A DNA stretch of 64,000 bases. Origin: a virus. This document shows positions 21,528 through 52,363 of this stretch, piece after piece. How positions within the stretch are numbered: the first letter of the stretch is position 1; every line of letters starts with the position of its first letter. Where the stretch lies: positions 190,268 to 254,267 of IMG/VR virus record IMGVR_UViG_3300022902_000004. The stretch is one strand, 5' to 3'. The notes beneath the pieces were generated by a model. The model was not told the DNA's origin, did not search any database, and saw only the letters and a list, made by a program, of their open reading frames with translations. The position numbers and the translations under genes were made by a program.

Positions 21528-22264
21528 ATCGTTGATACCCCTTTTTTCTGGACAACGATTGATGCAATTTCATTTCCCTTTTCAATAGCAGCCTGAACAT
21601 CACCTGTTTCAGTAAATGTCTTTGCGAATGCAGAAACGAATGAGTCACCAGCACCAGCAGAATCAACTCGATTCACCGTTGGCGTTGGATACACAGTTCC
21701 TCGATACATTGCACCACGAGGGCCCAATGTCACGATTAGATTTTCAATGATGTCTTCACCAAGAACTGATTTTGTACGTGCATACTCCGTCTCATTGATT
21801 TTGATGAATGAGATTGAATATGCCCATTCACCAAGAATCTTTTTTGTATCGAGGATTGAGATTTTCGATTTGCGCCCGATGAAGTTGATTTGATTCGTCG
21901 ACAACCAGCCTTTGTCATAATCAGATATCACGACGCAATCATATTTCGAGAAATCAATACCTCGAAGCAGGGCGTTACCATACTTTTCATCGTTCTCGTC
22001 GACCCTGAGGAACATATGATTCGATTTCGTTTCTACGTAACGAATCTTCTTGATACACTCGGCATTATCATTTGTGTATAGCTCCGTATCGCAACCCAAA
22101 ACTCTCATGTTGGCGGCAACATTTGAAGCCATCCCAAGGTTCTCAACACTTTTGATGCTATTGAAAACAGGAACTGGCGACTCCGGGGCGAGTCGCACTA
22201 CGTTGCCGTATACGAAGACGTCCAAACATGATTCACCAATTACTAAAAATTTCATAGCACACAC
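21524..22264 (-). CDS. PfkB-family sugar kinase (HldE/RfaE domain I-like)
   Basis: PfkB signature GAGDSFVSAF near the C-terminus. It overlaps the nucleotidyltransferase gene by 4 nt. Confidence 0.7.
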   Translation of the reverse strand: MCAMKFLVIGESCLDVFVYGNVVRLAPESPVPVFNSIKSVENLGMASNVAANMRVLGCDTELYTNDNAECIKKIRYVETKSNHMFLRVDENDEKYGNALLRGIDFSKYDCVVISDYDKGWLSTNQINFIGRKSKISILDTKKILGEWAYSISFIKINETEYARTKSVLGEDIIENLIVTLGPRGAMYRGTVYPTPTVNRVDSAGAGDSFVSAFAKTFTETGDVQAAIEKGNEIASIVVQKKGVSTI

Positions 22265-23442
22265 TTGACAAGGTCGCAGATTCTATCGATGTCTTCCGTA
22301 CCTAACTCTGGATTGTTGGGTAAAAAGAACCCACAATCATGAATCTCATCTGAAACGGGATGACTAAACTCACCGTATTCCGCCTTCCAGAATGGGTGCT
22401 TTCCTAAGTTTCCTGCGCTGAAGATTCTTGTTTCGACGCCGGCAACCCGTAGCATCTTCACAATTTTCGTTCGTTGTGCCTTGTCTTTTGCCAGGAGACC
22501 AAACGAGATTGAGACCGGCTTGTTGGTTCCCCAATCTTGAAACTTGAAAGTTCCTCGTAGGTTTTCCGCGTAGCGCTTGTGATTTCTCTCTCTGGCCTCT
22601 GATACCCAAGGTGCTTTCTTGACCTGGTCGATTCCAATGAATGCCTGTAAGTCTGTCGCCCTCAAGTTGAATCCTGGAACGAAGAATGTGAACGGTTTGT
22701 GGAAGTCATCAACTCCATTTTCTTCAACCAACCCGTCGTACACTGACTCATCAAGATCCTTTCCCCAGCCGTGACTTCGGAGCATGAGCAACATTTGGTA
22801 TGTTTCGAAATCGTCGGTGTTCACCATACCACCTTCAATTGTCGCCAACTGATGCCCAAAGTAGAATGAGAAGCTCGACATTTTGCCAACCGTTCCCACC
22901 TTCTTGCCGTTTGCATATTCAGCACCGAGAGCTGCGCAGCCGTCCTCAAGCAAAGTGAAGTTGTATTTCTTTGAGAGGGCATGCAATCTTTCAGCGTCAT
23001 GCGGGATACCGAGAACCTGCACAAAAATTACCGTTGCCGGATCCTCTTCGATACACACTTTTTCGAGGTCGTCGAGATCGATTCCATACGTTTTTGCATC
23101 GGCGCCAACCATGATCGGGTCGAAACCAAATTGCATGAATGGTGCGATTGTTGTGACCCATCCCACCGATGGGACGACGACCTTCATGTTTCTTGGCTTT
23201 GCAACCTTTGCGGCGTACGCCATCAGCAGGTTTGCAGAAGAGCCGGAGTTGCAAAACACAGAGTACTTCGTACCGATGTATTTCGCCCATGCTTTCTCAA
23301 ACTTTACCGTTAGTTCGCCCTTTGTCAGGCGAGGATATGTTTTCAGCCAATTGATAAGATTATCGATATCGTGATCGCTAATCGTATCTTTTGCCAGTGG
23401 GTACTCAATTTTATTCATCAATTTTCTCCATCCAATATTCAA
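22252..23442 (-). CDS. DegT/DnrJ/EryC1-family PLP/PMP enzyme, ColD-like 3-dehydratase
   Basis: Fold-type I sugar aminotransferase motif SFSFYFGHQLATIEGG. A His occupies the position of the Schiff-base Lys, as in GDP-4-keto-6-deoxymannose 3-dehydratase ColD and the E1 dehydratases. Gmd lies directly downstream. Confidence 0.6.
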   Translation of the reverse strand: MNIGWRKLMNKIEYPLAKDTISDHDIDNLINWLKTYPRLTKGELTVKFEKAWAKYIGTKYSVFCNSGSSANLLMAYAAKVAKPRNMKVVVPSVGWVTTIAPFMQFGFDPIMVGADAKTYGIDLDDLEKVCIEEDPATVIFVQVLGIPHDAERLHALSKKYNFTLLEDGCAALGAEYANGKKVGTVGKMSSFSFYFGHQLATIEGGMVNTDDFETYQMLLMLRSHGWGKDLDESVYDGLVEENGVDDFHKPFTFFVPGFNLRATDLQAFIGIDQVKKAPWVSEARERNHKRYAENLRGTFKFQDWGTNKPVSISFGLLAKDKAQRTKIVKMLRVAGVETRIFSAGNLGKHPFWKAEYGEFSHPVSDEIHDCGFFLPNNPELGTEDIDRICDLVKCVL

Positions 23443-24409
23443 TCATTTCGTCCAACATAGATTCGAATGTGTACTCAAATTGAAAGTTCGTTTTTGTTGT
23501 TGGGCCTATTTTTCCTAGAAGCTTTGAGGCATCACCTTTTAGGTTGTGCAACTCAAGTGGTCTCACGAACCGTGGGTCAACAACCACATGGTCATTATAA
23601 TTCAAATCTAGGTAATTGAAAACATATTCGCAAAGATGCCTAACTGAATTTGAACGACCGGTGGCCATGACAAAATCGTCACACTCATCCAACTGCAAAA
23701 TCGCATGCATCGCCCTAACATAATCTTTGGCATGACCCCAGTCCCGTGTTGCATCTAGGTTTCCTAAACGGAGCTCTTTCATCAAACCTTTTTTGATTCG
23801 AACTGCACCGATGACGACCTTATTCGTCACGAAATTGGCACCTCGGCGGGGTGACTCATGATTGAACAGAATACCGTTCGACAGAAACATGTTGTACGAT
23901 TCCCTATAGCACCTCATCAATGAGTAGGCCATTTGTTTTGCACAACCGTACGGGCTGACAGGAGACATTGGTGTTGTCTCTCTTTGGAATCCATCCGGAT
24001 CAATGTTGTTGCCAAACATTTCAGAGCTGCTTGCCTGATAAATCTTGGCCGAGGGATAACAGAGTCGCGTCGCTTCCAGCAAATTCATCACGCCCAAACC
24101 AGTTGCCTGGATTGTATACAACGGCTGGTCGAAACTTACCTTCACATGACTTTGAGCCGCCAGATTGTAAATCTCATGAGGTTTCACATCCATCACAACA
24201 CGAACCAACGATGCCATGTCTGTCACATCGGCAAACTGCAGGTTTTCTTTGATTTTTGCGTAAGTTCCGTCGTTCAGACGAGCAGATTGGTTTTCTGCGA
24301 TTGAGTTTCGTTTGAGTGTACCATGAACATTGTACCCCAATTCGAGGAGATATTCGGCAAGATAACTTCCATCTTGCCCGTTGATCCCCGTCACGAGTGC
24401 GCGTTTCAT
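23411..24409 (-). CDS. gmd: GDP-mannose 4,6-dehydratase
   Basis: MKRALVTGINGQDGSYLAEYLLELGYNVHG, GILFNHESPRRG and RDWGHAKDYV are near-identical to bacterial Gmd. Confidence 0.85.
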   Translation of the reverse strand: MKRALVTGINGQDGSYLAEYLLELGYNVHGTLKRNSIAENQSARLNDGTYAKIKENLQFADVTDMASLVRVVMDVKPHEIYNLAAQSHVKVSFDQPLYTIQATGLGVMNLLEATRLCYPSAKIYQASSSEMFGNNIDPDGFQRETTPMSPVSPYGCAKQMAYSLMRCYRESYNMFLSNGILFNHESPRRGANFVTNKVVIGAVRIKKGLMKELRLGNLDATRDWGHAKDYVRAMHAILQLDECDDFVMATGRSNSVRHLCEYVFNYLDLNYNDHVVVDPRFVRPLELHNLKGDASKLLGKIGPTTKTNFQFEYTFESMLDEMIEYWMEKIDE

Positions 24410-25332
24410 TACTTCCTCGCATGCTCAAAGTTTTCTTCAAACCATTTTGAAGTGTTAACAATTGCCCAAACGATTGGTGTCCGTACAAATGTTGGGAACA
24501 AATCATCAAAGTATTCACTTACCGTTTGGCGACGGAGTTGCCCGTTCGGCTTTGACGTATCCCAATCAACACTAACATTGAAATATTCTGCCACCGTCTC
24601 AACCAGCTTCCTGATTTCCAGTTCATCGCCTGACACAATCAGTTTCTGCGGCAAATCATCCACCGACGCTAGCAATTCGAAGCATGCTTCCGCCAAATCA
24701 TCAACGTAGATAAATTCACGACGAGGAGAGCCATCGCCCCATGCTTGCAAACTGGTTCCATTTTCTCTTGCCAAGTATGCCTTATGAATCAAGGATGGCA
24801 CGACATGCCCATGGGCAAAGTCAAAGTTGTCATTCGGGCCGAAGATGTTTCCTGGGATGATCGAGCAGTAGTTTACGCCGTATTGCTTCCTGTAGGCCTC
24901 AATTTGGACATCAACCATTCTCTTGGCATGAGCGTAAGCTCCATGTGCCGGGAAAGGAGGACCATCGTGTAGGACCGATTCTGTCATCGTTTCCACATCA
25001 GGAAAGGCACATACAGATGAAAACGCAATCAACTTTTCGACGCCATGCTTGTAGGCCTCATCAATGATCATCGTGTTCATCATGACATTGTCAAAAAATT
25101 GCTGCGCTGGCGTTTCAAGGTTTTTCGCAATCCCTCCGACACGGGCAGCAGTATGGATGACATAATTTGGCTTATAACAATCAAACATGTCTTTGACACC
25201 ATCTTGCTCTGTCAGATCCCAATTTTCCCGGGCCGCGAAGATTACATCAAATTGAGAATGATAGCCAGCTAACCTTCTGATAGCATTGCCGACCAACCCA
25301 TTACCGCCTGTGACCAATACCAATTTTTTCAT
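24409..25332 (-). CDS. GDP-L-fucose synthase-like epimerase/reductase (Fcl/ColC-like)
   Basis: SDR with VGNAIRR, HTAARVGG and a YAHAK catalytic motif. Collinear with E. coli Fcl. Confidence 0.75.
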   Translation of the reverse strand: MKKLVLVTGGNGLVGNAIRRLAGYHSQFDVIFAARENWDLTEQDGVKDMFDCYKPNYVIHTAARVGGIAKNLETPAQQFFDNVMMNTMIIDEAYKHGVEKLIAFSSVCAFPDVETMTESVLHDGPPFPAHGAYAHAKRMVDVQIEAYRKQYGVNYCSIIPGNIFGPNDNFDFAHGHVVPSLIHKAYLARENGTSLQAWGDGSPRREFIYVDDLAEACFELLASVDDLPQKLIVSGDELEIRKLVETVAEYFNVSVDWDTSKPNGQLRRQTVSEYFDDLFPTFVRTPIVWAIVNTSKWFEENFEHARK

Positions 25333-30095: not shown

Positions 30096-31119
30096 TTAGA
30101 ACTCCCACAAAAAATGAATAGTTTGCCATATTTTCATAATCAATAATTTCCTTGCTCAGAAACATATTTTGGGAAAGGAACGCCCGGAGTCTTTCTGGAT
30201 CATTATGCTTTCCTGAGTCATCATACACAGCCTGATTATGCAAAAATACAGAATTTATTTCTTCGTATCCAAATCCGGATTTCCATGCTTCAGGGTTAGA
30301 AAGTATCTTGCGCATGTCTAGGCCCCCAAGCAGGTTGTTCGATGGGTCTTGCCTCAGCCCAACATGACTAAATCCCGACGATGCGCCGTCGATTCCCCTG
30401 TCATGTTCAACAATCGAATCTTTAAGAATTGCCCAGCGCTTTCCGACAGAGGCAGCAAAAAACGTGAATGTTGATTCTGTGCAATACGCCGCAAAAATGT
30501 CGGGCTGCAGCCTCCCGTCAAACCCGTCGAATATGGCTTGGCTAAAAATATGAATATGGCTGTTACAAGCTTTGCCAACTGGAATCACGTGATTTTCATT
30601 CGTCACAAAACCCTTGAAACCCAACCATGCTTCGAAGCCGTTATCGTTTGAAGCTTGGATTGACAGGATTCCGTAATCATTCTTGACCAGCTCATTATAT
30701 CCTTTTGATAATACATCTGTCTGATCTGCGAAGTTCATTCCGGAATCAATGTAAACATATGCTGCGAAGTTTGTGCCATGTTGTCTCACCGCTTCTAGCG
30801 CCGCAAAATTACACGAAATATTAACCGGAACAACAGAATCTAAAAAACAGTAAGATATTCTGTCACCGAATGTGCCTTTTACTTTCTGTCTTGTCAACTG
30901 CGTATTACAGCAACTAGACATTACCAAATGAATGTTAGCGTCTTGTCGTAGTATCGAATCTATACTTTTTATGTACCAATCACTGTTTTCTTTTCCTGAC
31001 AACCCGCATGTATTGTATATCACAAGAAGTTTTTCATTTTTCATTATGGAAGTCGCCCCACTCAACAAGCACTGTCGATTTGCCGTCCTGTCTTTCGTAT
31101 GCAGTCTTATATGCGTCAA
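30088..31119 (-). CDS. Hypothetical protein (possible glycosyltransferase-like)
   Basis: 343 aa. The likely start is an internal ATG near 31044 (MKNEKLLVIYNTCG…). N-terminal Rossmann-like beta-alpha pattern. Confidence 0.35.
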   Translation of the reverse strand: MTHIRLHTKDRTANRQCLLSGATSIMKNEKLLVIYNTCGLSGKENSDWYIKSIDSILRQDANIHLVMSSCCNTQLTRQKVKGTFGDRISYCFLDSVVPVNISCNFAALEAVRQHGTNFAAYVYIDSGMNFADQTDVLSKGYNELVKNDYGILSIQASNDNGFEAWLGFKGFVTNENHVIPVGKACNSHIHIFSQAIFDGFDGRLQPDIFAAYCTESTFTFFAASVGKRWAILKDSIVEHDRGIDGASSGFSHVGLRQDPSNNLLGGLDMRKILSNPEAWKSGFGYEEINSVFLHNQAVYDDSGKHNDPERLRAFLSQNMFLSKEIIDYENMANYSFFVGVLND

Positions 31120-31582
31120 AAATTTGTTCTGGTGTGTCGAGTCTTATTATGTCTGTGTTAGTTAACATCATGCGATACGCGTCTGTAAAATCACCGATGT
31201 GCTGATGTTGTGGATGAAGGGGTCGTTCCGATCCAATCCCAACCCTGATGATGCACTTTGGTGCATAACGGCCCGCAGAAAAAGCCTGCAGTTTATCTAA
31301 GTGATTAACGAGCTGGTTTGTTGCAAGCAATAAAAAATTCCACCTTGGATATATCGAAACAGGAACTGAACCATCGACGGCCATCCCAATTGTGATTCCC
31401 ATTTGCATTTCCTCCGACACCGGCATTTCTATCTTTTTGTTATCAGGAACATCAATTAATGTTCCTGTCATCGATGTTCCTGGTGATGCCACCGCTTGAC
31501 CAATAAAAACCGTATCGGACTGCGAACCCAACCACGTCATGGCCCGTGTTAACTCGTCTCGATATTTCATTGATTTAGTCAA
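31034..31582 (-). CDS. E1-beta/transketolase pyrimidine-binding-domain protein (TPP enzyme small subunit, pair B)
   Basis: 182 aa. …VFIGQAVASPGTSMTGTL… resembles the 2-oxoacid dehydrogenase E1-beta N-domain. 4-nt overlap with the E1-alpha-like gene upstream. Confidence 0.5.
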   Translation of the reverse strand: MTKSMKYRDELTRAMTWLGSQSDTVFIGQAVASPGTSMTGTLIDVPDNKKIEMPVSEEMQMGITIGMAVDGSVPVSIYPRWNFLLLATNQLVNHLDKLQAFSAGRYAPKCIIRVGIGSERPLHPQHQHIGDFTDAYRMMLTNTDIIRLDTPEQIFDAYKTAYERQDGKSTVLVEWGDFHNEK

Positions 31583-32253
31583 AACTGGACTCGCTTGCCG
31601 GCGCCGGCATGTGGGTATTTAATTAAATTATATGCATAATAACGTACATGTTTATCATTTCTGTTTGCATACGTTGGTGTGTACATTCCCCAAGCCTTTT
31701 TTGTGTCTGTGCAAACTGACTTTTGATTGTCTTCAACAATGTATGTTATCGGAAGATCAAAGTTTGTAGCATATTTTATACATTCATGCGCTATTCCTGT
31801 TTCACTTGTCATGTCGCCAATAAAACACCAAACATGCTCACTTCCTTCACGAAGTTTAATATTTAATGCAGTGCCTAGTGCTATTGGTATAGTTCCAGCA
31901 ACAATTCCAGAGCACATAATCTTGTGCGATGAATAACACAATGAAATTGAGCGGCCTGCGATAATATCACGCATAAGATCGGCTGGATCGACACCCTTTA
32001 ATAAACAATGATAATGACTCCTCCAGCTAGAAAAAATCCAATCTTTATGTTTTACATCACTAAAAATGTCAAGTAATTGATCTTCATTTCCATTATGAAG
32101 ATGTATAGGTGCTAAAATATTTGATGCATTAAATGATTCCGCGACTTTATTCTCAAATTCAATTAATTCTTTTTTCGATAGCATTGTTTTTATCCTGTAA
32201 AGTCGCAATAACATGTTTTGTAATATCAGCGGCACTCGGTGGTAAATTGTCAA
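31579..32253 (-). CDS. E1-alpha-like thiamine-diphosphate-binding protein (pair B)
   Basis: …HKIMCSGIVAGTIPIALGTA…VWCFIGDMTSETGIAHECIKYATNFDLPITYIVEDNQ… matches the GDG-x25-N TPP motif of E1-alpha/transketolase. The likely start is the ATG near 32184. Confidence 0.6.
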   Translation of the reverse strand: MTIYHRVPLILQNMLLRLYRIKTMLSKKELIEFENKVAESFNASNILAPIHLHNGNEDQLLDIFSDVKHKDWIFSSWRSHYHCLLKGVDPADLMRDIIAGRSISLCYSSHKIMCSGIVAGTIPIALGTALNIKLREGSEHVWCFIGDMTSETGIAHECIKYATNFDLPITYIVEDNQKSVCTDTKKAWGMYTPTYANRNDKHVRYYAYNLIKYPHAGAGKRVQF

Positions 32254-33106
32254 CTGCAGGATGAAATCCTGCAGTTTTGTCAGCTAGGCCCAGCACGCTC
32301 ATTGATGCATGTGTAATTGCCATCATGTCGAAAGCCAAATTTTTTGCAATGCCGTCGCGATAATCATCATCAATGACAACTCCGCGGCCAGCGGCTGATA
32401 AATCGTTTAATACATCACGTGATGGTTCAAAGGGTTTGATTTGCCAAATATGACTTACGGCCGCCTTAATCCCTAGGCACAAAAGTCGCCTTGACGCTTC
32501 GATTGCAGCGAATCGCGTGATAGATATTGGGAACAAAATAATATCCGGATTGTCAAAAATGACGTCATCCAAATCATCAGTGTTGTCGTATGAACCTCGA
32601 TGTTCAGATACATAATACACATCATCGTCGTCCATAAACATGTTATATGTTGCTGTGTATTCAGACGATGACATTGGAGCATATATTTTCACACCTGGCA
32701 TCCGATAGTATAACGAATGATGTGAAGAACCGGCGACTGGGCCAATTCCGCCTTCCATGGCTATTGATCTTATGAACATCGGGCATGGTCTATTCCAAAT
32801 TTCTTTAGATTTGCATGCGTAATTAATAATAATGGGTGCATTAAACCAGTTAAAACCTTGATATCGAATTACATACATTGGCCGTTTTCCAGCTAAGGCA
32901 GCACCGACGACAAATCCACTGCCGGCGACGTCAGCCATTGGAAGCTCCACCATACCGTCTTCTTCATATAATTCTGGTAACGTACCGCCTACCCAGCCTA
33001 CAGCCGTTAAACACTGGCCCATTGCAACTCCATCATTGTTCAAAAGATGTAATTGTACTGTGTTTTTTATTGTATTTCTAAGTGTTTTTGGCATTTTCCC
33101 AAACAT
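32159..33106 (-). CDS. E1-beta-like TPP enzyme subunit (pair A)
   Basis: …ELPMADVAGSGFVVGAALAGKRPMYVIRYQGFNWFNAPIIINYACK… matches the E1-beta Pyr domain. 315 aa, so it includes the C-terminal domain. Confidence 0.6.
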   Translation of the reverse strand: MFGKMPKTLRNTIKNTVQLHLLNNDGVAMGQCLTAVGWVGGTLPELYEEDGMVELPMADVAGSGFVVGAALAGKRPMYVIRYQGFNWFNAPIIINYACKSKEIWNRPCPMFIRSIAMEGGIGPVAGSSHHSLYYRMPGVKIYAPMSSSEYTATYNMFMDDDDVYYVSEHRGSYDNTDDLDDVIFDNPDIILFPISITRFAAIEASRRLLCLGIKAAVSHIWQIKPFEPSRDVLNDLSAAGRGVVIDDDYRDGIAKNLAFDMMAITHASMSVLGLADKTAGFHPAVDNLPPSAADITKHVIATLQDKNNAIEKRIN

Positions 33107-34469
33107 CCTTTACAAAACGTGCTGCAGTTGTAATCCGGCTAGCACCAAATTTCTTCAAAAATTGATCTTGTCGATCAAATGTAGTAGGATCATCAATACC
33201 TGCTCCGGCATGCCAAAACTTTCTATGTGTTTTAACATTTAGAAGTGCAGGTTTCGATAAATCAAGCTTTGAAAGAGTTTCCCAAAGTTGGGTCGGGTCA
33301 TCTGTCACATTGCATGATTGGAGACCAAATGATTTTGCTATATCACTAATATCCCAGCTGCGACGTACTTTTTTCTCAGTTAATATTGAAAAATTATTAT
33401 CTTCAACAATGAATAATATTGGTAACCCTTTCGTTGCTGCCCATCCCAAAGAAGCCAAAAAATAATCTTCTTCAGCAGCTGCATCACCGGCGAAACACAG
33501 CGTAAATATCCTATTAGTAAAACACATGCCTGTAGCGATAGGGGCTTGTGAACCCATAAGCCCGTCATGACCGTATATCTGCTTTTCTTTTGAATGAATA
33601 GATGCTGAGCCGCCCATACCTCCGGCGCACCCATTTTTATGCCCAAGCAATTCTAGGACTAATTTTTCAGGATCACCACCGAATGAAAGATATGTCGAAT
33701 GACCTCGATGTTGAATAAAAATCTGCCTTTTTGTAGGACCATGATGATCTAAAAATACAGAAAGTGTTGCGGCGATGTATTCTTGGCCAGCTGATAAATA
33801 CGTCGGTATACTAATCGTTTTATTTTTTAATTGATTAAATGCATATTCTTCGAATGCACGACTTGTTGCAGCAAGTTCAAATATTTTTAATTCTTGTTCA
33901 TTAGTCAATTTCTTGGTTTGTAATTTTCTATTTATTGCCGGTAATCCTGTATTGCCAAACATGTTTGTATAATCAAAAACCATTGCCGTATTCACAACAG
34001 GCACACCAATTGCAGAAACCTCAGCTAAGTATTTTGTATCATCATCAAAAAAAACTGCTTTTTGAGTTTTCGCTATTAGCGGAAAATGCTCCGCCTTATT
34101 CTGCGTTTTATATAAAAGTATTCTATCGCCGTTAAATAAATGCGTTAGACCAAATGTCGACAATAACATAACTGACGGTTGGTTTGTGTTATGTAATCCA
34201 TGGACGGCTCCGCCTGACAAATATGAAACAACTTTTTTATTACTATGAAGAAATTCTAGCATATCTCGCACGCCGATTCTAAGCTTACAAATATTGCCAA
34301 CGTCATCGATGATTGTGTCAGTTGTTTTTTCAGTTAACGCGTTGACATTATGAATGTGGTATGGTGGAAGTGTCTGTTTCGCCCAAATTGGTCTACCGGT
34401 AGGATCGACAATATCCCATAAAGTTCTGTCTAGATCGAATACGAAATGCTCAAAAATATTAAAGTTCAT
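33078..34469 (-). CDS. HAD-phosphatase domain fused to E1-alpha-like TPP-binding domain (pair A)
   Basis: N-terminal FDLDRTLWD and FFDDD HAD motifs. C-terminal …YLSAGQEYIAATL…HRGHS…GCAGGMGGSASIH…GSQAPIATGM…CFAGDAAAEEDYFLASLGWAATKGLPILFIVEDNN… is a classic E1-alpha (pyruvate/acetoin dehydrogenase) signature. Confidence 0.6.
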   Translation of the reverse strand: MNFNIFEHFVFDLDRTLWDIVDPTGRPIWAKQTLPPYHIHNVNALTEKTTDTIIDDVGNICKLRIGVRDMLEFLHSNKKVVSYLSGGAVHGLHNTNQPSVMLLSTFGLTHLFNGDRILLYKTQNKAEHFPLIAKTQKAVFFDDDTKYLAEVSAIGVPVVNTAMVFDYTNMFGNTGLPAINRKLQTKKLTNEQELKIFELAATSRAFEEYAFNQLKNKTISIPTYLSAGQEYIAATLSVFLDHHGPTKRQIFIQHRGHSTYLSFGGDPEKLVLELLGHKNGCAGGMGGSASIHSKEKQIYGHDGLMGSQAPIATGMCFTNRIFTLCFAGDAAAEEDYFLASLGWAATKGLPILFIVEDNNFSILTEKKVRRSWDISDIAKSFGLQSCNVTDDPTQLWETLSKLDLSKPALLNVKTHRKFWHAGAGIDDPTTFDRQDQFLKKFGASRITTAARFVKDVWENAKNT

Positions 34470-35154
34470 CCAAGCTTATCCTGTTAATAGAAAGTAGTGT
34501 TGTATTGGGCATTATTCCAAATTTTGTCGACAAAAAACTCATCGTATGACCAGCAACTACATCACCGGCCTGGATAATAACATCACCCGACGGAGTCGTA
34601 AGGCCACCTCGAAGGACAACTAAAACTTCTTCATACGGGCGATTATGCAACTCTGCTGTTAATTTAACGTTTTTTATCACAAAGTTGCAATTAAACAAAT
34701 TTATAGATGTTATAGCATCATCGACAGGATCATCTAACCACAAAGAGTCTGCTGACTTTGCTCGCTCATGTTTATTTCCCTCATACGGAAGATGTGTCCT
34801 TCCATATTTATCCTCCAGCCTTACAAGGTCATGTTTATCTTGCGGGCATTCCACTTCCAAAACAAATGAGGATGTCAAAGCTTTGGTCGAATGAAATCTA
34901 CCTCTAAAAATCATGATTTTATCGAGACCACGGAGTGTAATACTATTTTTTAAAAATGAAACCTGAACATTTCCGTCTAAACAAATCAGGCCGGTATTTT
35001 TTTTAGGATGACAATGCATTGATGTTTGTTTTTCATCATCAATTCGAAGCAGCCAAATACCTAGGTTTTCATTTTGATATGCTAAATATTCATGTCCCCA
35101 TGGTTTATTGACAATAACATCTTTATAGTCTTTCTTTTCTAGAATATGCATCAA
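34459..35154 (-). CDS. Bicupin protein (sugar ketoisomerase/epimerase-like)
   Basis: Two cupin modules (KPWGHEYL…SMHCHPKK…LICLDG and a second C-terminal barrel). Confidence 0.5.
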   Translation of the reverse strand: MMHILEKKDYKDVIVNKPWGHEYLAYQNENLGIWLLRIDDEKQTSMHCHPKKNTGLICLDGNVQVSFLKNSITLRGLDKIMIFRGRFHSTKALTSSFVLEVECPQDKHDLVRLEDKYGRTHLPYEGNKHERAKSADSLWLDDPVDDAITSINLFNCNFVIKNVKLTAELHNRPYEEVLVVLRGGLTTPSGDVIIQAGDVVAGHTMSFLSTKFGIMPNTTLLSINRISLDEL

Positions 35155-35656
35155 TCGCCTCCTTCATCCACTCCCCCATCCAATTATAATGAGGAGATGA
35201 AATGATGTTGTCAGACATAACGACAGGCTCTCGCGAATAAACAGCACCTGCGTTTGTAATGTCATCTTCAAGACTGTAATAGCCAGAAATATCTCTTCCC
35301 TTTACAACCTTCGCGGATATTAATAATTGCGCGCCATGACATGTACTAGCGATTATTTTTCCGGCAGCATCCCATTCATGAACAAATCTAAGTATTTTTT
35401 TATCTTGTCGTAATTTTTCCAACGCCTTAACACCGCCTGGCAAAATTAAAAAATCATATTTATTAAAAATCTCGTCATACCTCACTGACAAGTCAGACAC
35501 GTTTAGGTCTGCATTCATTTTCGTGCCCATAATGCCAAAAATCACTTCCTTGTTTGCCATAATTGAAACGTTTGGCGTTTCTTCTCGGCACCTATAATAA
35601 GGATAAATTACTTCGTGATCCTGGTATCCTTCCCATGTAATAATCAATGCTTTCAT
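35123..35656 (-). CDS. DJ-1/PfpI-family protein
   Basis: Collinear with Pyrococcus PfpI: YPYYRCREE, LILPGG, the nucleophile elbow IASTCHGAQLLISA, then KGR and ITNAG. Confidence 0.75.
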   Translation of the reverse strand: MKALIITWEGYQDHEVIYPYYRCREETPNVSIMANKEVIFGIMGTKMNADLNVSDLSVRYDEIFNKYDFLILPGGVKALEKLRQDKKILRFVHEWDAAGKIIASTCHGAQLLISAKVVKGRDISGYYSLEDDITNAGAVYSREPVVMSDNIISSPHYNWMGEWMKEAIDAYSRKERL

Positions 35657-35658
35657 AT

Positions 35659-37182
35659 TTACTTTTCATCCCCAAGCAGTTTTCGCTTTAGTTTTATTTT
35701 CGATGTTTCTTCTACATCATTTCTTGCTTTTATACCAAATTTTTGTTCAAGTAATTCCAGATATGGTTTATGTTTGTGATATTTCATCCAAGCTTTATCA
35801 CGAAAATCCAAAATTTCAGATGCCGTCAAATTGTCAGTCGCCAAATTTAATGTATTATATGAATGTTGGCTATAGCCATCATATGAGTTAGGCAAGCATA
35901 GTTCATTCTTTTTTGCGTCCATGTAAAGAGGGCTTCCAGGATATGCCATGGCAGAATATACGTTTACCATCTCTGTGAGATTTTCCATGGCAAAGTCCAA
36001 GGTTTCTTGCATCGATTCAGCAGTATCCATTGGCAGTCCAAAAATATAATTTGCGCCAATATTGATTCCGGCGTTGCGCATGTCAGTCATGACATCATTG
36101 ATTCTTACTTCCTTAAAGCTATCTTTATGCACATATTTTCGCAAAACCGTATTTGGATTTTCAATTCCCAAGCCCAGCCAATTTATACCGGCACGTTTTA
36201 ATTTGTCAAGATATTTCGGTTTGCATGTGTCTATTCGCGAATATGCCCAAATATTAAACTTATAACCACGTGAAATGATAAGATCGCAGATTGCTTCAAA
36301 GTGTCGTGGGTTTAAAACAAATAGTTCATCTGCGATCTTAACGTTCTTAACGCCCATTTTAGCAAAATAATCGAATTGCTCAATAATAAAATTAGGATCC
36401 CAATATCTAAACTTATTGCTGTCAGCGCTAGTAATGCCGGCACGATTGTCTGTCCTGTTAATAATATTAATCATACAAAATGAACATCGGTACGGACAGC
36501 CCAATGATGTATATAGTGCGGCGAAGGGTGTTTTGTCAGAATCATTTGACCATGAGTGCCATCCTGCAGTTCTATATTTAGAAAAATCAGGTAGTAGATC
36601 CCATGCCATACCAGGCAAATCTGTTTCCATTAATGCTTGTGGAACAATTCTGGACGCACGATTTATAACAATATTATTCTCGACATTACGAAAGCCAAGA
36701 CCTGACACTTTCTCTAGCTGTTTTTCATCCTTTAGGTTTGTTACAGCCAATAAATCGCGGATTGCATATACACCCTCATTTAAACAGATTGCATTAATGG
36801 CAGGCTCGTCAATGAGGCTTTTCGTAGGCAGCGCGGCTACATGGCCCCCTACAAATAAAATGAACGAATTCGGATCTTCGTTTCTTAAGCTAGCAGCCAC
36901 AGCTGTGGCTGCTGACATATTCTGTGAAGATGCACTAGGTTGCTGGCCGTAAACAACAAAACAAACAATCCTGGAATTATATTCGATAATCTGTGCAACT
37001 GTCTCTTTATCAGTCAATTGGTTTACTTCAGCATCCAAAATTGCTGGTGAAAAACCAACTGATCGGACAGAGTTTGCTAAAAGAGCAGCCCATATCGGGG
37101 GTTCAATTGCAGAATGTCGCGAACTTAAATCTTGATATACTATCTTCGAAGAATTTGTATGTACAAATAAAATATCAATCAC
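35659..37182 (-). CDS. Cobalamin-binding radical SAM enzyme (class B)
   Basis: N-terminal B12-binding-like domain followed by a GCPYRCSFC CxxxCxxC radical-SAM cluster motif. 507 aa. Confidence 0.75.
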   Translation of the reverse strand: MIDILFVHTNSSKIVYQDLSSRHSAIEPPIWAALLANSVRSVGFSPAILDAEVNQLTDKETVAQIIEYNSRIVCFVVYGQQPSASSQNMSAATAVAASLRNEDPNSFILFVGGHVAALPTKSLIDEPAINAICLNEGVYAIRDLLAVTNLKDEKQLEKVSGLGFRNVENNIVINRASRIVPQALMETDLPGMAWDLLPDFSKYRTAGWHSWSNDSDKTPFAALYTSLGCPYRCSFCMINIINRTDNRAGITSADSNKFRYWDPNFIIEQFDYFAKMGVKNVKIADELFVLNPRHFEAICDLIISRGYKFNIWAYSRIDTCKPKYLDKLKRAGINWLGLGIENPNTVLRKYVHKDSFKEVRINDVMTDMRNAGINIGANYIFGLPMDTAESMQETLDFAMENLTEMVNVYSAMAYPGSPLYMDAKKNELCLPNSYDGYSQHSYNTLNLATDNLTASEILDFRDKAWMKYHKHKPYLELLEQKFGIKARNDVEETSKIKLKRKLLGDEK

Positions 37183-37919
37183 TGCTTGTCTCCAATTGCT
37201 TGTTTAAGTTTCTCAATTGATGCTTGGCGCTCTGCAACCATTTCGTCAGACCTGAATAGCATTTCATTGTTATCATTTCTTCTGCGCAATTCAGCCAACA
37301 TTGTTGTTTCATCCACAGCGCTCTTCCCTTGCGTCCAATGCATATGTTCTATAACAAGATCTTTTACGAAAATGTTTCTATTCACAGCTTTTGCTAATTC
37401 AAACATCCATGCGTCTGACCAGTCAGCTGTGAAATACGGAGGTGATGCATACCCTAATAACTCTATCCAGTTCCTATGTAAGCCGTAATGTGTTGCAAAG
37501 CCCTCATCATGCACGCCATCGCAACCATAAACTAATGCCAATCGATCATCATATTTTTCAAACGCTTCGTCAATTAATAAATCCCATCCTTTAGTTCTCA
37601 TAATTGTGTCATCACCAAATTGCATCATAACATCAACGTCAGAATTATTGAAAAGAACATTATATGTGTCAGAAAGTGGCCTTACATCATGCTTGTCAAT
37701 AAATAGGTGAATTGGAATCGATGATTGGGGACCAACTTTTTTAATGAAATTTATTGTCGCTTCATCGTCATTGTCAATGTATAAATGAAATGAAATGCGT
37801 TCCGGCTTGGCTGCTAATGAAACAACACTATCCATCAATCGAGCCAACATTTTGACACGTTTTCTTGTAGGACAAAAAATCCCAATTTTGAAATTAGTAG
37901 TTGGCATACCATGGCTCAT
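37179..37919 (-). CDS. Hypothetical protein (possible GT-A-like, DxD)
   Basis: 246 aa with YIDNDDE and DxD-like segments. Weak call. Confidence 0.35.
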   Translation of the reverse strand: MSHGMPTTNFKIGIFCPTRKRVKMLARLMDSVVSLAAKPERISFHLYIDNDDEATINFIKKVGPQSSIPIHLFIDKHDVRPLSDTYNVLFNNSDVDVMMQFGDDTIMRTKGWDLLIDEAFEKYDDRLALVYGCDGVHDEGFATHYGLHRNWIELLGYASPPYFTADWSDAWMFELAKAVNRNIFVKDLVIEHMHWTQGKSAVDETTMLAELRRRNDNNEMLFRSDEMVAERQASIEKLKQAIGDKQ

Positions 37920-38871
37920 CTAAAATATCATATGCTGACTGAACCTGTTTGATTCCCGTCTTCAAATCGATCTTGCACTCAAATCCTAAATCGTAGATTT
38001 TCTGGCTGCTGACGATGTAATCACGTTTGTCTGGATCTTTGAAATTCTCATTCACGTAAATCTCGCACGGAATAACTTCGGCAATTTGTTTTGCCAATTC
38101 CATTTTTGTGCAATTTAGGGCATCGTTGCCGACATTGAACACTTGGTCTTTGCATTCAGCCCAGTTATCAACAACGAACCTGAACGCTGCACAAACATCT
38201 TGGATATGCACATAGTTTCGCTTGAATGAGTCCTCATAAAGAACAAGCGCTTTTTCCTTCATTGCCTTCAACGTAAAATTGTTGATAAGCAAATCTGATC
38301 GCATTCTTGGAGAGGGTCCATATACTGTTGCTAGACGAAGTGTTGTGCACCCCGGGGTTGCAATAAAGGCCTTTTCCGCGTCGACCTTCGTCGTGCCGTA
38401 TAACGTAATTGGTGTCATCGGTGACTCTTCAGTACAAACCTCGCCCGCATTGGCGTTTCCGTAACCAGAATTTGTGCATGGGTATACAACAATTTGATTA
38501 GGTTGCTTAATTGATGCAATGAATGTGTTTGCCGTTGCATTAATCTCGACGGCACCTCTTTCGTCATCGCGACATAGCGGAAAGCCGACTAATGCAGCCA
38601 ATGGAACAATGATGTCTGCATCATTAACTAGTTTCGTTAATAATTTAGTGTCGCGGACGTCACCCTTCACAAATTCGAAATTTTTATGTGTTAAGTACGG
38701 AAGAAGACTAGTTTTATCATACATTAATGAGTCGATGACCGTGACCTTATGATCATGCAGGAACCATGGAATCAACGAACTGCCAATGTATCCTGCTCCA
38801 CCTGTAATAAGTACTTTTTTCATTGTTTCCCCCAGCTGATTTCCCAGTCTTTGAAGTCTGCTGCAAGACAA
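37894..38871 (-). CDS. NAD-dependent sugar epimerase (SDR; HldD/GalE-like)
   Basis: MKKVLITGGAGYIGSSL Rossmann motif and YGTTKVDAEK (YxxxK). Confidence 0.7.
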   Translation of the reverse strand: MSCSRLQRLGNQLGETMKKVLITGGAGYIGSSLIPWFLHDHKVTVIDSLMYDKTSLLPYLTHKNFEFVKGDVRDTKLLTKLVNDADIIVPLAALVGFPLCRDDERGAVEINATANTFIASIKQPNQIVVYPCTNSGYGNANAGEVCTEESPMTPITLYGTTKVDAEKAFIATPGCTTLRLATVYGPSPRMRSDLLINNFTLKAMKEKALVLYEDSFKRNYVHIQDVCAAFRFVVDNWAECKDQVFNVGNDALNCTKMELAKQIAEVIPCEIYVNENFKDPDKRDYIVSSQKIYDLGFECKIDLKTGIKQVQSAYDILDEPWYANY

Positions 38872-39233
38872 TCGATTTTGTAGTCTTTACGTCCGCCCAC
38901 TTTTTCCTGGATTTTGTTTTTTGCTGTGTTTCTAATCCCGTTCAGGCCATGGGTCAATTCAAGGTCATTCCCTTCACCAATCCCTTTCCTGTAATTTGTT
39001 TCATTGTGCCAAATATGTAAATTCATTTGTGACAAAACTACAATAGCACGAACAACGTCGGCAGAGAACTTCAGATCCTCATTTTCAGCCAACAATTGAA
39101 TGTCGTGCAAAATGTCGCTAATCTCATCTGCATACTCTGCTTTGTGTTCGACAATGAACACCTCTTTTAGTTGTGCGATTGACAACCTGTCAACCAACTC
39201 AGAAAGTGTTGGAAGATATTTCCTATCCGTCAT
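38820..39233 (-). CDS. Hypothetical protein
   Basis: 137-aa ORF in the operon. No recognisable motif. Confidence 0.35.
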   Translation of the reverse strand: MTDRKYLPTLSELVDRLSIAQLKEVFIVEHKAEYADEISDILHDIQLLAENEDLKFSADVVRAIVVLSQMNLHIWHNETNYRKGIGEGNDLELTHGLNGIRNTAKNKIQEKVGGRKDYKIDCLAADFKDWEISWGKQ

Positions 39234-52305: not shown

Positions 52306-52363
52306 AAATTCCCCTGTATAATTTTGACTATAACCATGTCTCTTGGTTTATAAACCTATTCGT

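What the first reader, a model, noticed from the sequence alone, without database searches (positions are those of the whole stretch)
31034..37182. Two E1-alpha/beta-like thiamine-diphosphate enzyme pairs (one fused to a HAD phosphatase) with B12-radical SAM, DJ-1/PfpI and bicupin: branched-chain / C-alkylated sugar tailoring block
Pair A is 33078..34469 (a HAD domain plus an E1-alpha domain with the CFAGDAAAEEDY…LPILFIVEDNN TPP motif) together with 32159..33106 (E1-beta). Pair B is 31579..32253 (E1-alpha-like, CFIGDMTSETG…ITYIVEDNQ) together with 31034..31582 (an E1-beta N-domain only).

Pyruvate-dehydrogenase-like E1-alpha/beta pairs attach two-carbon side chains to sugars in the avilamycin (AviB1/B2) and aldgarose pathways. 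Cobalamin radical-SAM enzymes (CPYRCSFC) are the usual sugar C-methyltransferases or epimerases.

The fusion of a HAD phosphatase to an E1-alpha subunit, and the duplication of the pair, are not arrangements I recognise from described pathways. This block implies the phage makes a branched-chain and/or C-methylated rare sugar.
Basis: partly seen in the sequence, partly recalled or inferred. Interest (0 to 1): 0.78.

Follow-up and report, generated by a model that had tools for sequence, protein, structure and literature searches.

The report
Phage copy of bacterial sugar-branching cassette
This stretch of a large phage genome carries an uncharacterised sugar-modifying gene cassette, built around two thiamine-dependent enzyme pairs and a B12 radical-SAM enzyme. 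The same cassette occurs in many aquatic bacteria, including SAR11, and in hundreds of viral contigs, and it probably makes a branched deoxy-sugar.

Summary
In detail: all seven ORFs, domains and quoted motifs are present. The "novel arrangement" reading needs revision.

- **Two families, not a duplication.** The pairs are anciently diverged (28% identity). The short pair (α ~201 aa, β ~178 aa) is a full-length, highly conserved family, not a truncation. The long pair always travels with DJ-1 and a cupin.
- **Conserved order.** rSAM–DJ-1–cupin–longα–longβ–shortα–shortβ recurs in SAR11 single-cell genomes and other phage contigs.
- **HAD–E1α fusion.** It is real (16 independent contigs) but simply joins two genes that are neighbours in relatives.
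- **ColD-like partner.** Both pairs are tightly linked to a ColD-like PMP 3-dehydratase and to GDP-mannose or GDP-heptose genes. The window also encodes GMD and ColD-like and ColC-like enzymes.

This supports, without proving, ThDP-dependent C-branching of a GDP-4-keto-3,6-dideoxy sugar. That is yersiniose/YerE logic carried out by E1-type enzymes so far described only in actinomycete antibiotic pathways.

- **rSAM.** It is class B but not assignable to methyltransferases.
- **Long β oddity.** Asp replaces the cofactor-activating Glu in 73 of 73 members.

Verdict: a new variant of a known kind. Function is inferred only.

The parts
35659..37182 (-). Class B (B12-binding) radical SAM enzyme, 507 aa, with CPYRCSFC cluster motif
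   Evidence: Pfam B12-binding plus Radical_SAM. Best NCBIfam matches are HpnJ (126.8 bits, cut-off 577.6) and BchE. Best solved relatives are TokK and AprD4, both weak. It sits immediately upstream of the short alpha in 60 of 80 viral loci.
35123..35656 (-). DJ-1/PfpI family protein, 177 aa, Cys-His nucleophile elbow intact (STCHGA)
   Evidence: Pfam 1.3e-31. The Cys is invariant in 70 of 70 homologues. Present in 80 of 80 viral loci carrying the long alpha.
34459..35154 (-). Metal-binding cupin, mannose-6-phosphate-isomerase-like, probably a bicupin, 231 aa
33960..34469 (-). HAD phosphatase domain (MDP-1/Acid_PPase type) at the N-terminus of the 463-aa fusion; DLDRT and FFDDD motifs intact
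   Evidence: Pfam Acid_PPase 7.2e-6 and NCBIfam MDP-1 1.3e-7. 42% identical to the separate 177-aa HAD gene of L008. A separate gene in all 32 other loci that have it.
33078..33920 (-). Long E1-alpha-like ThDP (PP) domain at the C-terminus of the fusion; GDA-X-EDNN motif and WHAGAGID C-terminal motif
   Evidence: E1_dh 4.6e-20. Human PDH E1alpha 5.9e-17. More than 2000 homologues of about 275-282 aa at 57-66% identity. Invariant ThDP motif.
32159..33106 (-). Long E1-beta-like subunit (Pyr domain plus C-terminal domain), 315 aa, with Asp (MADVA) at the position of the cofactor-activating Glu
   Evidence: Transket_pyr. Aligns to G. stearothermophilus E1beta residues 14-278. Asp in 73 of 73 family members, and in 50%-identity representatives down to about 31% identity.
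31579..32184 (-). Short E1-alpha-like ThDP (PP) subunit, 201 aa (the ORF can be read from a TTG at 32253); GDMTSETG...EDNQ motif and YPHAGAGKRVQF C-terminus
   Evidence: E1_dh 1.1e-14, weaker DXP_synthase_N. 7952 homologues, all about 198-210 aa, at 57-74% identity. 70 invariant columns.
31034..31570 (-). Short E1-beta-like subunit, Pyr domain only, about 178 aa, canonical Glu kept (PVSEE)
   Evidence: Transket_pyr 5.9e-9. PDB alignments. Follows the short alpha in 79 of 80 bacterial and 78 of 80 viral loci. Glu present in 89 of 89 homologues.
37894..38871 (-). SDR nucleotide-sugar dehydratase/epimerase/reductase; orthologue of the cassette's SDR
   Evidence: Epimerase 2.7e-26. 40% identical to the SDR of the T4-like cassette. 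Present in 61 of 80 bacterial and 66 of 80 viral short-pair loci.
22252..23442 (-). ColD-like PMP-dependent 3-dehydratase (annotated by Pfam as a DegT aminotransferase)
   Evidence: Best solved relative is ColD (2gms), E 1.5e-55. His aligns with ColD His188 in place of the usual Lys (FYFGHQ).
23411..25332 (-). GDP-mannose 4,6-dehydratase (23411-24409) and GDP-fucose-synthase/ColC-like SDR (24409-25332)
   Evidence: GDP_Man_Dehyd 6.4e-106 and Epimerase 4.5e-51.

Best explanation
The block is a phage-borne copy of a widespread, uncharacterised GDP-sugar tailoring cassette.

**Proposed pathway (steps marked shown or inferred)**
1. GDP-mannose is converted by the window's GMD to GDP-4-keto-6-deoxymannose. 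*The enzyme's identity is shown by homology.*
2. The ColD-like PMP enzyme converts that to GDP-4-keto-3,6-dideoxymannose. *The enzyme's identity is shown by homology.*
3. At least one E1-type ThDP heteromer acts as a non-oxidative carboligase. It decarboxylates a 2-oxo acid, most likely pyruvate, and adds the acyl anion to the C4 ketone. The product is a 4-C-acyl tertiary alcohol. *Inferred.* This is the chemistry of YerE and of the actinomycete E1-type pairs AlmDI/DII, AviB1/B2 and KbDH.
4. An SDR then reduces or epimerises the product. *Inferred.*
5. The B12 radical-SAM enzyme performs a further radical alkylation or rearrangement on an unactivated carbon. *Inferred; the reaction type is unknown.*
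6. The many glycosyltransferases in the same gene array install the sugar on a glycan. *Inferred.*

**Roles of the two modules**
- The short pair with the rSAM is the core unit in this phage type.
- DJ-1, the cupin, the HAD and the long pair form an accessory module inserted between them.
- The accessory module's specific roles are unknown. Possibilities are a different donor, a second C-C bond, or processing of the side chain.
- The HAD fusion is a local gene-fusion event.
For: **Enzymes look functional**
- ThDP/Mg motifs are invariant in both alpha families.
- The short beta keeps the catalytic Glu in 89 of 89 homologues.
- Identity is 55-74% across thousands of homologues.

**Not a dehydrogenase complex**
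- Scores are far below the PDH E1 equivalog cut-offs.
- No E2, E3 or lipoyl proteins were found among about 40 ORFs scanned.
- The short beta lacks the C-terminal domain.

**Context**
- A ColD-like gene is present in 70 of 80 bacterial short-pair loci, 70 of 80 viral short-pair loci and 68 of 80 viral long-pair loci.
- It lies immediately downstream of the short beta in 43 of 80 bacterial loci.
- These 'DegT' proteins have ColD as their best solved relative (E about 1e-54) and His in place of Lys.

**Minimal loci.** Some have only the pair plus GMD, a ColD-like enzyme and an fcl-like SDR. These are L012 and L123, L126 and L144. They parallel the yersiniose set DdhB / E1 / YerE / YerF.

**Two entry routes**
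- GHMP kinase (best match HddA), nucleotidyltransferase (best match HddC) and GmhA point to GDP-heptose.
- GMD points to GDP-mannose. GHMP and GMD never occur together in the 80 long-pair viral loci.

**Published precedents**
- A C3-dehydratase acting on GDP-heptose: PMC10440746.
- YerE: PMC9306805.
- E1-type alphaKADH2 keto-sugar branching: PMC12247030.

**Same gene order elsewhere.** It is found in SAR11 loci L048, L069 and L080 and in the phage contig L008.
Against: - No biochemical data exist for any member of either pair family.
- No sequence comparison with characterised branching enzymes (AviB1/B2, AlmDI/DII, KbDH) could be made.
- The long beta has Asp instead of the canonical cofactor-activating Glu, so its ThDP chemistry may differ.
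- A PMI-like cupin, a HAD phosphatase and the frequent adjacency of a GHMP kinase would equally fit a role at the sugar-phosphate level.
- In the window the ColD-like gene lies about 9 kb from the pairs, though in the same co-directional array.
- Nothing explains why two pairs are needed.
- Neither the donor substrate nor the position of attack is known.
Confidence: 0.5

Rival explanations
1. **Chain-building at the sugar-phosphate level.** The ThDP pairs act like transketolase or DXP synthase and make a higher or 1-deoxy ketose phosphate. The cupin (PMI-like) isomerises it. The GHMP kinase phosphorylates C1, and the HAD removes the distal phosphate. A nucleotidyltransferase then activates the sugar. 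This is the logic of the heptose and lincosamide-octose pathways.
For: - The short alpha also hits DXP_synthase_N and DXS/transketolase models weakly.
- The cupin family hits PF01050 mannose-6-P isomerase in 12 of 12 members.
- The HAD has an intact DxDxT motif.
- A GHMP kinase lies immediately upstream of the short alpha in 32 of 80 bacterial loci and immediately downstream of the short beta in 36 of 80 viral loci.
Against: - Both pairs also occur in loci that start from GDP-mannose (GMD plus a ColD-like enzyme) and have no kinase or nucleotidyltransferase. These are L012, L123, L126, L144 and the window itself.
- GHMP and GMD are mutually exclusive, yet the pairs stay.
- GmhA already supplies the isomerase step where heptose genes are present.
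- The best family matches are to E1_dh, not Transketolase_N.
Confidence: 0.2
2. **Side-chain supply.** One pair, most likely the long one with DJ-1 and the cupin, does not touch the sugar ring. It makes or trims a small acyl or aldehyde unit that is then attached to the sugar as an N- or O-substituent. Alternatively, it processes the branch installed by the other pair.
For: - The long pair is strictly coupled to DJ-1 (80 of 80) and the cupin (78 of 80), enzymes typical of small carbonyl or isomerase chemistry.
- The long beta has an atypical Asp.
- Loci with both pairs exist.
Against: - In T4-like phage cassettes and in L001 the long pair is the only ThDP enzyme present, and it occupies the same position next to the GHMP and ColD-like genes. 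This suggests it can substitute for the short pair.
- No acyltransferase is consistently linked to it.
Confidence: 0.15
3. **Ordinary metabolism or decay.** The genes are a host-derived pyruvate or acetoin dehydrogenase E1, or transketolase halves carried as a central-metabolism auxiliary gene, or decaying fragments.
For: Best named hits are the PDH E1 alpha and beta models.
Against: - Scores are 39-107 bits against cut-offs of 321-411.
- No E2 or E3 genes were found.
- Subunits are shorter than canonical ones but conserved at exactly those lengths in thousands of sequences.
- They are embedded in nucleotide-sugar and glycosyltransferase genes in every locus examined.
- The motifs are intact.
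Confidence: 0.03

Closest known systems
E1-type (alphaKADH2) ThDP keto-sugar branching enzymes of actinomycete antibiotic pathways: AlmDI/DII (aldgarose), AviB1/B2 (eurekanate), KbDH-alpha/beta (kibdelomycin), and the paulomycin and trioxacarcin homologues (PMC12247030, PMC4753412)
   Same: - A heteromeric alpha (PP domain) and beta (Pyr domain) of the PDH-E1 lineage.
- No E2 or E3 partner.
- Encoded inside deoxy-keto-sugar pathways.
- Expected to transfer a C2 acyl anion to a sugar ketone.
   Different: - The characterised examples come from secondary-metabolite clusters. This cassette sits in GDP-sugar glycan loci of Gram-negative and other aquatic bacteria, and in phages.
- The subunits are much smaller: 201 + 178 aa with no beta C-terminal domain, or 275 + 305 aa with Asp for Glu.
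- It is coupled to a ColD-like dehydratase and a B12-rSAM.
- Sequence relationship to the characterised members was not tested.
YerE/YerF yersiniose pathway and its relatives ErwE and MygE (PMC9306805)
   Same: - The same pathway logic: nucleotidyltransferase, 4,6-dehydratase, PMP-dependent 3-dehydratase, ThDP carboligase acting on the 3,6-dideoxy-4-keto sugar, then a reductase.
- A surface-glycan context.
   Different: - YerE is a single-chain decarboxylase-family (acetolactate-synthase-like) flavoprotein-type ThDP enzyme acting on CDP-sugars.
- Here the enzymes are split E1-type proteins, and the context points to GDP-sugars.
Colitose pathway and C. jejuni GDP-3,6-dideoxyheptose pathway (ColB/ColD/ColC; PMC10440746)
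   Same: - GMD or a GDP-heptose 4,6-dehydratase, followed by a ColD-type C3-dehydratase and an fcl/ColC-type SDR.
- The window encodes all three.
- Related cassettes carry HddA-, HddC- and GmhA-like genes.
   Different: These known pathways end with reduction. They contain no ThDP enzyme, rSAM, DJ-1 or cupin.
Class B radical SAM enzymes acting on sugars or small alcohols (GenK, Fom3, TokK methyltransferases; AprD4 dehydratase; HpnJ)
   Same: - An N-terminal B12-binding domain and a CxxxCxxC radical SAM core.
- Encoded in a sugar pathway.
   Different: - It reaches no curated family cut-off.
- The nearest curated families, HpnJ and BchE, are not methyltransferases.
- The reaction type is open.

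Membership tests
E1-type (alphaKADH2) ThDP keto-sugar branching enzymes | Alpha subunit with PP domain and GD(G)-X(~28)-NN ThDP/Mg2+ motif | tested here: met
   Long alpha has GDAAAEEDY...EDNN and short alpha has GDMTSETG...EDNQ. D, E-D-N and the flanking residues are invariant in alignments A1 and A2. E1_dh hits at 4.6e-20 and 1.1e-14.
E1-type (alphaKADH2) ThDP keto-sugar branching enzymes | Beta subunit Pyr domain with the cofactor-activating Glu (short pair) | tested here: met
   PVSEE aligns with the Glu of the E1beta structures 1ik6 and 1um9. Glu is present in 89 of 89 homologues.
E1-type (alphaKADH2) ThDP keto-sugar branching enzymes | Beta subunit Pyr domain with the cofactor-activating Glu (long pair) | tested here: not met
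   PMADVA aligns Asp with the Glu of PLAES in 3duf_B. Asp is present in 73 of 73 homologues and in 50%-identity representatives down to about 31% identity. Glu reappears only in more distant ones.
E1-type (alphaKADH2) ThDP keto-sugar branching enzymes | Beta subunit C-terminal (Transketolase_C-like) domain | tested here: inconclusive
   The long beta aligns to E1beta through residue 278 of 325, and homologues carry a weak Transketolase_C hit. The short beta (178 aa) has only the Pyr domain.
E1-type (alphaKADH2) ThDP keto-sugar branching enzymes | Encoded within a deoxy-keto nucleotide-sugar pathway, without E2/E3 | tested here: met
   GMD, ColD-like and SDR genes lie in the window. A ColD-like gene is present in 68-70 of 80 loci per set. 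No lipoyl or E2 domains were found among the ORFs scanned.
E1-type (alphaKADH2) ThDP keto-sugar branching enzymes | Transfers a C2 unit from pyruvate to a sugar ketone | not testable with these tools
   Needs an enzyme assay.
E1-type (alphaKADH2) ThDP keto-sugar branching enzymes | Clusters phylogenetically with AviB1/B2, AlmDI/DII and KbDH | not tested
2-oxo acid dehydrogenase complex E1 (PDH / BCKDH / acetoin DH) | Reaches curated equivalog scores; E2/E3 partners present | tested here: not met
   TIGR03182 scored 107 and 91.6 bits against a cut-off of 393.85. PRK09212 scored 39.6 and 39.2 bits against 321. No E2 or E3 genes were found.
Transketolase (split N/C subunits) | Transketolase_N-type PP domain, and Pyr plus C-terminal domains | tested here: not met
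   There is no Transketolase_N hit. Transketolase NCBIfam models score 15-19 bits against cut-offs of 488-575.
Class B (cobalamin-binding) radical SAM | N-terminal B12-binding domain plus CxxxCxxC radical SAM core | tested here: met
   PF02310 at 36.4 bits and PF04055 at 63.5 bits, both above cut-off. CPYRCSFC is present.
Class B radical SAM C-methyltransferases (GenK/Fom3/TokK type) | Sequence membership in a methyltransferase subfamily | tested here: inconclusive
   The best NCBIfam matches are HpnJ at 126.8 and BchE at 109.9 bits. Methyltransferase families score lower (PhpK 79.8, KedN5 59.6). All are far below cut-off. TokK in the PDB scores 39.7 bits.
ColD/E1-type PMP-dependent 3-dehydratase (window 22252-23442 and the cassette 'DegT') | His replaces the Schiff-base Lys; closest to ColD | tested here: met
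   FYFGHQ and FYYAHH align with ColD FYSHH; the H188N mutant 3b8x marks the position. E-values are 1.5e-55 and 7.2e-54.
DJ-1/PfpI | Flavodoxin-like fold with a nucleophile-elbow Cys | tested here: met
   PF01965 scores 110 bits against a cut-off of 26.6. The Cys is invariant in 70 of 70 homologues. The score is below the NCBIfam PfpI subfamily cut-off (116 against 139).
HAD phosphatase, MDP-1/subfamily IIIC type | DxDxT motif I and DD motif IV | tested here: met
   FDLDRTLW and FFDDD are present. Acid_PPase scores 26.4 bits against a cut-off of 27, which is marginal. MDP-1 scores 31.9 bits against 53.75.

The most novel reading that the evidence does not exclude
The short (201 + 178 aa) and long (Asp-variant) heteromers are two new architectures of E1-type ThDP carboligase. 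Together with a dedicated B12 radical-SAM enzyme, they build a so-far undescribed class of C-branched, C-alkylated 3,6-dideoxy hexoses or heptoses. These sugars would decorate the surface of SAR11 and many other aquatic bacteria. Large phages would carry the pathway to remodel host or virion glycans. In loci with both pairs, two separate C-C bonds would be made on one sugar.
Probability: 0.3. Interest if true: 0.8.

Novelty: new variant of a known kind. Interest (0 to 1): 0.62.

Why it matters
If the inference holds, several things follow.

- **Reach of the chemistry.** E1-type ThDP sugar branching would no longer be a curiosity of actinomycete antibiotics. It would be a common feature of environmental surface glycans. 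The cassette is in 244 GTDB species representatives, including many Pelagibacteraceae, and in at least 330 IMG/VR contigs.
- **A tractable enzyme.** The 201 + 178 aa heteromer would be the smallest E1-type ThDP enzyme architecture so far, which makes it attractive for biocatalysis of tertiary alcohols.
- **A natural experiment.** The family-wide Asp-for-Glu substitution bears directly on how the ThDP cofactor is activated.
- **Phage biology.** Phage carriage of the whole pathway suggests that rare-sugar remodelling of host or virion surfaces is a recurrent strategy in aquatic phage-host conflict.
- **Testability.** The window supplies every enzyme needed to make the proposed acceptor from GDP-mannose.

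Tried and rejected
- **No close phage relative.** Megablast of the block against GenBank phages found nothing. tblastn of a large structural ORF found nothing. tblastn of the fusion protein found only distant acoA genes at 26% identity. No isolate relative exists in that collection.
- **Erwiniose idea dropped.** I considered that the rSAM methylates C7 of a 3,6-dideoxyheptose to give erwiniose- or caryophyllose-type sugars. Published work explains those sugars by YerE-like enzymes using longer 2-oxo acids (PMC9306805), so I dropped it as an identification.
- **Phosphonate pathway rejected.** I considered PEP mutase, phosphonopyruvate decarboxylase and Fom3/PhpK. No PEP mutase is present in any locus. 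The ThDP proteins are E1-type, not the PnPy- or sulfopyruvate-decarboxylase type.
- **MEP-like pathway rejected.** I considered DXS, IspD and IspE. The kinase's best match is HddA and the nucleotidyltransferase's best match is HddC.
- **No other fusions.** A search for other HAD-E1alpha fusions found none in 32 loci.
- **Cupin not resolved.** The cupin fold search returned only generic cupin matches, so it did not settle isomerase versus epimerase versus dioxygenase.
- **No family hits.** Pfam and PHROGs gave nothing for ORFs 37179-37919, 38820-39233, 39223-40212, 30088-31119 and 29280-30095.
- **No literature.** Searches for the cassette in phage or SAR11 papers found only a passing mention of 'radical SAM cassettes' in pelagimyophages (PMC7029224).

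Full report

Yes. The window's genes run almost entirely on the minus strand.

Pfam confirms each domain call:
- 31034-31582: Transket_pyr only.
- 31579-32253: the N-terminal two-thirds of E1_dh, with weaker DXP_synthase_N and TPP_enzyme_C hits.
- 32159-33106: Transket_pyr.
- 33078-34469: an Acid_PPase/MDP-1-type HAD domain (residues 9-160) followed by E1_dh (residues 201-431).
- 34459-35154: a weak cupin.
- 35123-35656: DJ-1/PfpI.
- 35659-37182: B12-binding plus Radical_SAM.

The quoted motifs are all there.

The window is viral. It encodes a head maturation protease, baseplate wedge subunits, a phage-type helicase and a late sigma factor. An identical copy of the fusion protein lies on contigs up to 184 kb, and a cluster member lies on a 318-kb contig. 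The source is therefore a large phage.

GC content drops to 0.37-0.39 across 32-38 kb, against about 0.45 elsewhere. That is consistent with the block having been acquired horizontally.

**2. The two pairs are two old families, not a duplication.**

*The long alpha.* The E1 domain of the fusion has over 2000 homologues. Almost all are stand-alone proteins of 270-287 aa at 57-66% identity. The ThDP motif GDAAAEEDY...EDNN and a C-terminal WHAGAGID motif are invariant.

*The short alpha.* Read from the ATG at 32184, it is 201 aa. It has at least 7952 homologues, all 198-210 aa long, at 57-74% identity over their full length. There are 70 invariant columns, including the motif GDMTSETG...EDN and the C-terminus YPHAGAGKRVQF. 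It is not a truncated gene.

*Relationship.* A profile-profile comparison of the two alpha families gives 98% probability but only 28% identity over 157 columns.

*The short beta.* Its family length is about 178 aa and it has only the Pyr domain. It follows the short alpha in 79 of 80 bacterial loci and 78 of 80 viral loci.

*Catalytic residues.*
- The short beta keeps the cofactor-activating Glu in 89 of 89 homologues.
- The long beta has Asp at that position (PMADVA against PLAES of G. stearothermophilus E1beta). This holds in 73 of 73 family members.
- It also holds in 50%-identity representatives down to about 31% identity. Glu reappears only in more distant relatives.

None of the four proteins approaches the curated PDH-E1 or transketolase cut-offs. 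No E2 or E3 genes were found among the roughly 40 ORFs scanned.

Neither is met.

**3. The arrangement is a conserved cassette.**

*Related phage contigs.*
- L008 is syntenic with the window. Its order is SDR, an unknown ORF, rSAM, DJ-1, cupin, HAD (a separate 177-aa gene), E1alpha (278 aa), E1beta (305 aa), short alpha, short beta.
- Simpler relatives of the same phage type (L006, L009-L011) have the rSAM followed directly by the short pair.
- T4-like contigs (L002-L005) carry rSAM, DJ-1, long alpha, long beta, GHMP kinase, 'DegT' and SDR, next to gp23, UvsY and UvsW.

*Bacterial genomes.*
- A scan of one genome per GTDB species found 244 loci with the short alpha. Hosts include Pelagibacteraceae, SAR116, Verrucomicrobiota, Burkholderiales, Planctomycetes and CPR bacteria. 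Cultured Massilia and Herbaspirillum strains are among them.
- SAR11 single-cell genomes L048, L069 and L080 have rSAM, DJ-1, cupin, long alpha, long beta, short alpha, short beta, GHMP, ColD-like and SDR. That is the window's order.

*Viral contigs.* IMG/VR holds 84 contigs with the long alpha and 246 with the short alpha.

*Co-occurrence by tblastn in 80-locus sets.*

| Anchor and set | Partner genes found (loci out of 80) |
|---|---|
| Short alpha, bacterial | ColD-like 70, GHMP 62, SDR 61, nucleotidyltransferase 53, rSAM 52 |
| Short alpha, viral | ColD-like 70, rSAM 69 (immediately upstream in 60) |
| Long alpha, viral | DJ-1 80, cupin 78, long beta 78, ColD-like 68, rSAM 48, HAD 31 |

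GHMP (30 loci) and GMD (32 loci) never occur together in the long-alpha viral set.

**4. The HAD fusion.**

The exact 463-aa fusion is encoded on 16 contigs from independent ENA, JGI and Logan assemblies. It is not an assembly artefact.

In all 32 other loci that have the HAD, it is a separate gene. In about 13 of them it lies directly upstream of the long alpha, in another reading frame.

The window protein aligns as the L008 HAD (42% identity), then a linker of about 15 residues, then the L008 E1alpha (62% identity). It is a local fusion of neighbouring genes.

HAD presence tracks rSAM presence: 28 of 31 loci with the HAD have the rSAM, against 20 of 49 without it. This is unexplained.

**5. 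What the neighbours say about chemistry.**

*The 'DegT' proteins are 3-dehydratases.*
- They are not ordinary aminotransferases.
- Their best solved relative is ColD, the GDP-4-keto-6-deoxymannose 3-dehydratase, at E about 1e-54 to 1e-55. CDP-4-keto-6-deoxyglucose 3-dehydrase comes next.
- His sits where aminotransferases have the Schiff-base Lys.
- This holds for the cassette copies and for the window's copy at 22252-23442.

*The window encodes the GDP-mannose route.* The ColD-like gene lies next to GMD (23411-24409) and an fcl/ColC-like SDR (24409-25332). The window can therefore make GDP-4-keto-3,6-dideoxymannose.

*The alternative entry is GDP-heptose.*
- In the heptose-type loci the GHMP kinase's best match is HddA. 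The nucleotidyltransferase's best match is HddC. The SIS protein is GmhA.
- C. jejuni shows that a 4,6-dehydratase followed by a PLP C3-dehydratase works on GDP-heptose (PMC10440746).

*A 3,6-dideoxy-4-keto nucleotide sugar is the known acceptor for ThDP branching.*
- It is exactly the acceptor that YerE branches with pyruvate in yersiniose biosynthesis (PMC9306805).
- E1-type alpha/beta pairs (alphaKADH2) are the branching enzymes in the aldgamycin, avilamycin, paulomycin, kosinostatin and kibdelomycin sugars. KbDH-alpha/beta has been shown in vitro to add pyruvate-derived C2 units to cyclic ketones (PMC12247030).

*Minimal loci mirror the yersiniose gene set.* They contain only a pair plus GMD, a ColD-like enzyme and an fcl-like SDR. 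Examples are L012, L123, L126 and L144.

**6. Most likely mechanism, and what is inferred.**

*Shown by homology and context:*
- Intact ThDP enzymes of the E1 lineage, with no dehydrogenase-complex partners.
- Intact class B rSAM, DJ-1 (Cys invariant), HAD (DxDxT) and metal-binding cupin.
- A GDP-3,6-dideoxy-4-keto-sugar supply route encoded in the same gene array.

*Inferred:*
- At least one pair adds a 2-oxo-acid-derived acyl anion to the sugar ketone.
- An SDR then reduces the product.
- The rSAM performs a radical alkylation or rearrangement.
- The glycosyltransferases (at least six in 16-43 kb) install the product.

*Not resolved:*
- Why two pairs are present.
- What DJ-1, the cupin and the HAD do.
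- Which carbon is attacked.
- What glycan is decorated: host LPS or capsule, virion or DNA.

*The rSAM.* Its closest curated families are HpnJ and BchE, not methyltransferases, and all matches are far below cut-off. TokK and AprD4 are the closest solved structures, and both are weak.

**7. Rivals.**

*Main rival: ThDP chemistry at the sugar-phosphate level (transketolase or DXS-like).*
- For it: the PMI-like cupin, the HAD, the adjacent GHMP kinase and the weak DXS hits.
- Against it: the pairs persist in GMD-type loci that lack any kinase or nucleotidyltransferase, including this window.

*Second rival.* The long pair with DJ-1 and the cupin makes or processes a side chain rather than branching the ring.

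*Ordinary E1, transketolase or pseudogene readings.* These are effectively excluded.

**8. Novelty.**

I found no paper describing this cassette. The pelagimyophage survey mentions only 'radical SAM cassettes' and LPS genes (PMC7029224). Reviews list E1-type sugar branching only for secondary metabolites (PMC12247030).

The kind, ThDP keto-sugar branching, is known. What is new:
- The minimal 201 + 178 aa architecture.
- The Asp variant of the long beta.
- The coupling to a ColD-like dehydratase and a B12-rSAM.
- The GDP-sugar context.
- The very wide environmental and viral distribution.

These were the HAD fusion and the 'duplication'.

I score interest at 0.62. This is a well-defined, widespread and directly testable unknown, but its function is inferred only.

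Noticed in passing
window 22252-25332 (-): A ColD-like PMP 3-dehydratase, GMD and an fcl/ColC-like SDR sit together. This is a colitose-type GDP-3,6-dideoxyhexose trio in a phage. Pfam labels the first protein only as a DegT aminotransferase.
   Followed up: yes
window 32159-33106 (-) and homologues in L001-L175: The whole long E1-beta family has Asp where ThDP enzymes normally have the cofactor-activating Glu. This holds in 73 of 73 members and persists in representatives down to about 31% identity.
   Followed up: partly
window 38820-39233 (-): A small 137-aa protein has no family hit. It accompanies the cassette in 39 of 80 and 37 of 80 viral loci, but in 0 of 80 bacterial loci. An Mpo1-like (DUF962) gene shows the same virus-only pattern in relatives, though it is absent from the window.
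   Followed up: partly
window 50368-54836 (-): PrkA serine kinase, SpoVR and DUF444 (YeaH) form a complete triad encoded by a phage.
   Followed up: no
window 46209-47522 (-): A PIN-domain plus PhoH fusion protein. The same protein sits near the glycan cluster in the related contig L009.
   Followed up: no
window 28468-29271 (-): A UDP-glucose/GDP-mannose dehydrogenase-like protein of only 267 aa, with the N-terminal and central domains but no C-terminal domain. It is conserved at 261-265 aa in L006, L008 and L009, so it is not a fragment.
   Followed up: no
window 21524-22264 (-): Only the last 80 or so residues of this 246-aa ORF match the PfkB sugar-kinase family. There is a weak T4 beta-glucosyltransferase hit upstream (E 0.004).
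   Followed up: no
window 30000-38000: GC content falls to 0.37-0.42, against about 0.45 in the rest of the window. This suggests the ThDP / rSAM / DJ-1 / cupin block was acquired from a lower-GC donor.
   Followed up: no
viral loci L096-L175: The HAD gene tracks the radical SAM gene: 28 of 31 loci with the HAD have the rSAM, against 20 of 49 without it. GHMP-kinase-type and GMD-type cassettes are mutually exclusive.
   Followed up: partly
P0404, P0419, P0410: Some relatives of the long beta are 453-628 aa, with the beta part at the C-terminus. They are probably alpha-beta single-chain fusions.
   Followed up: no
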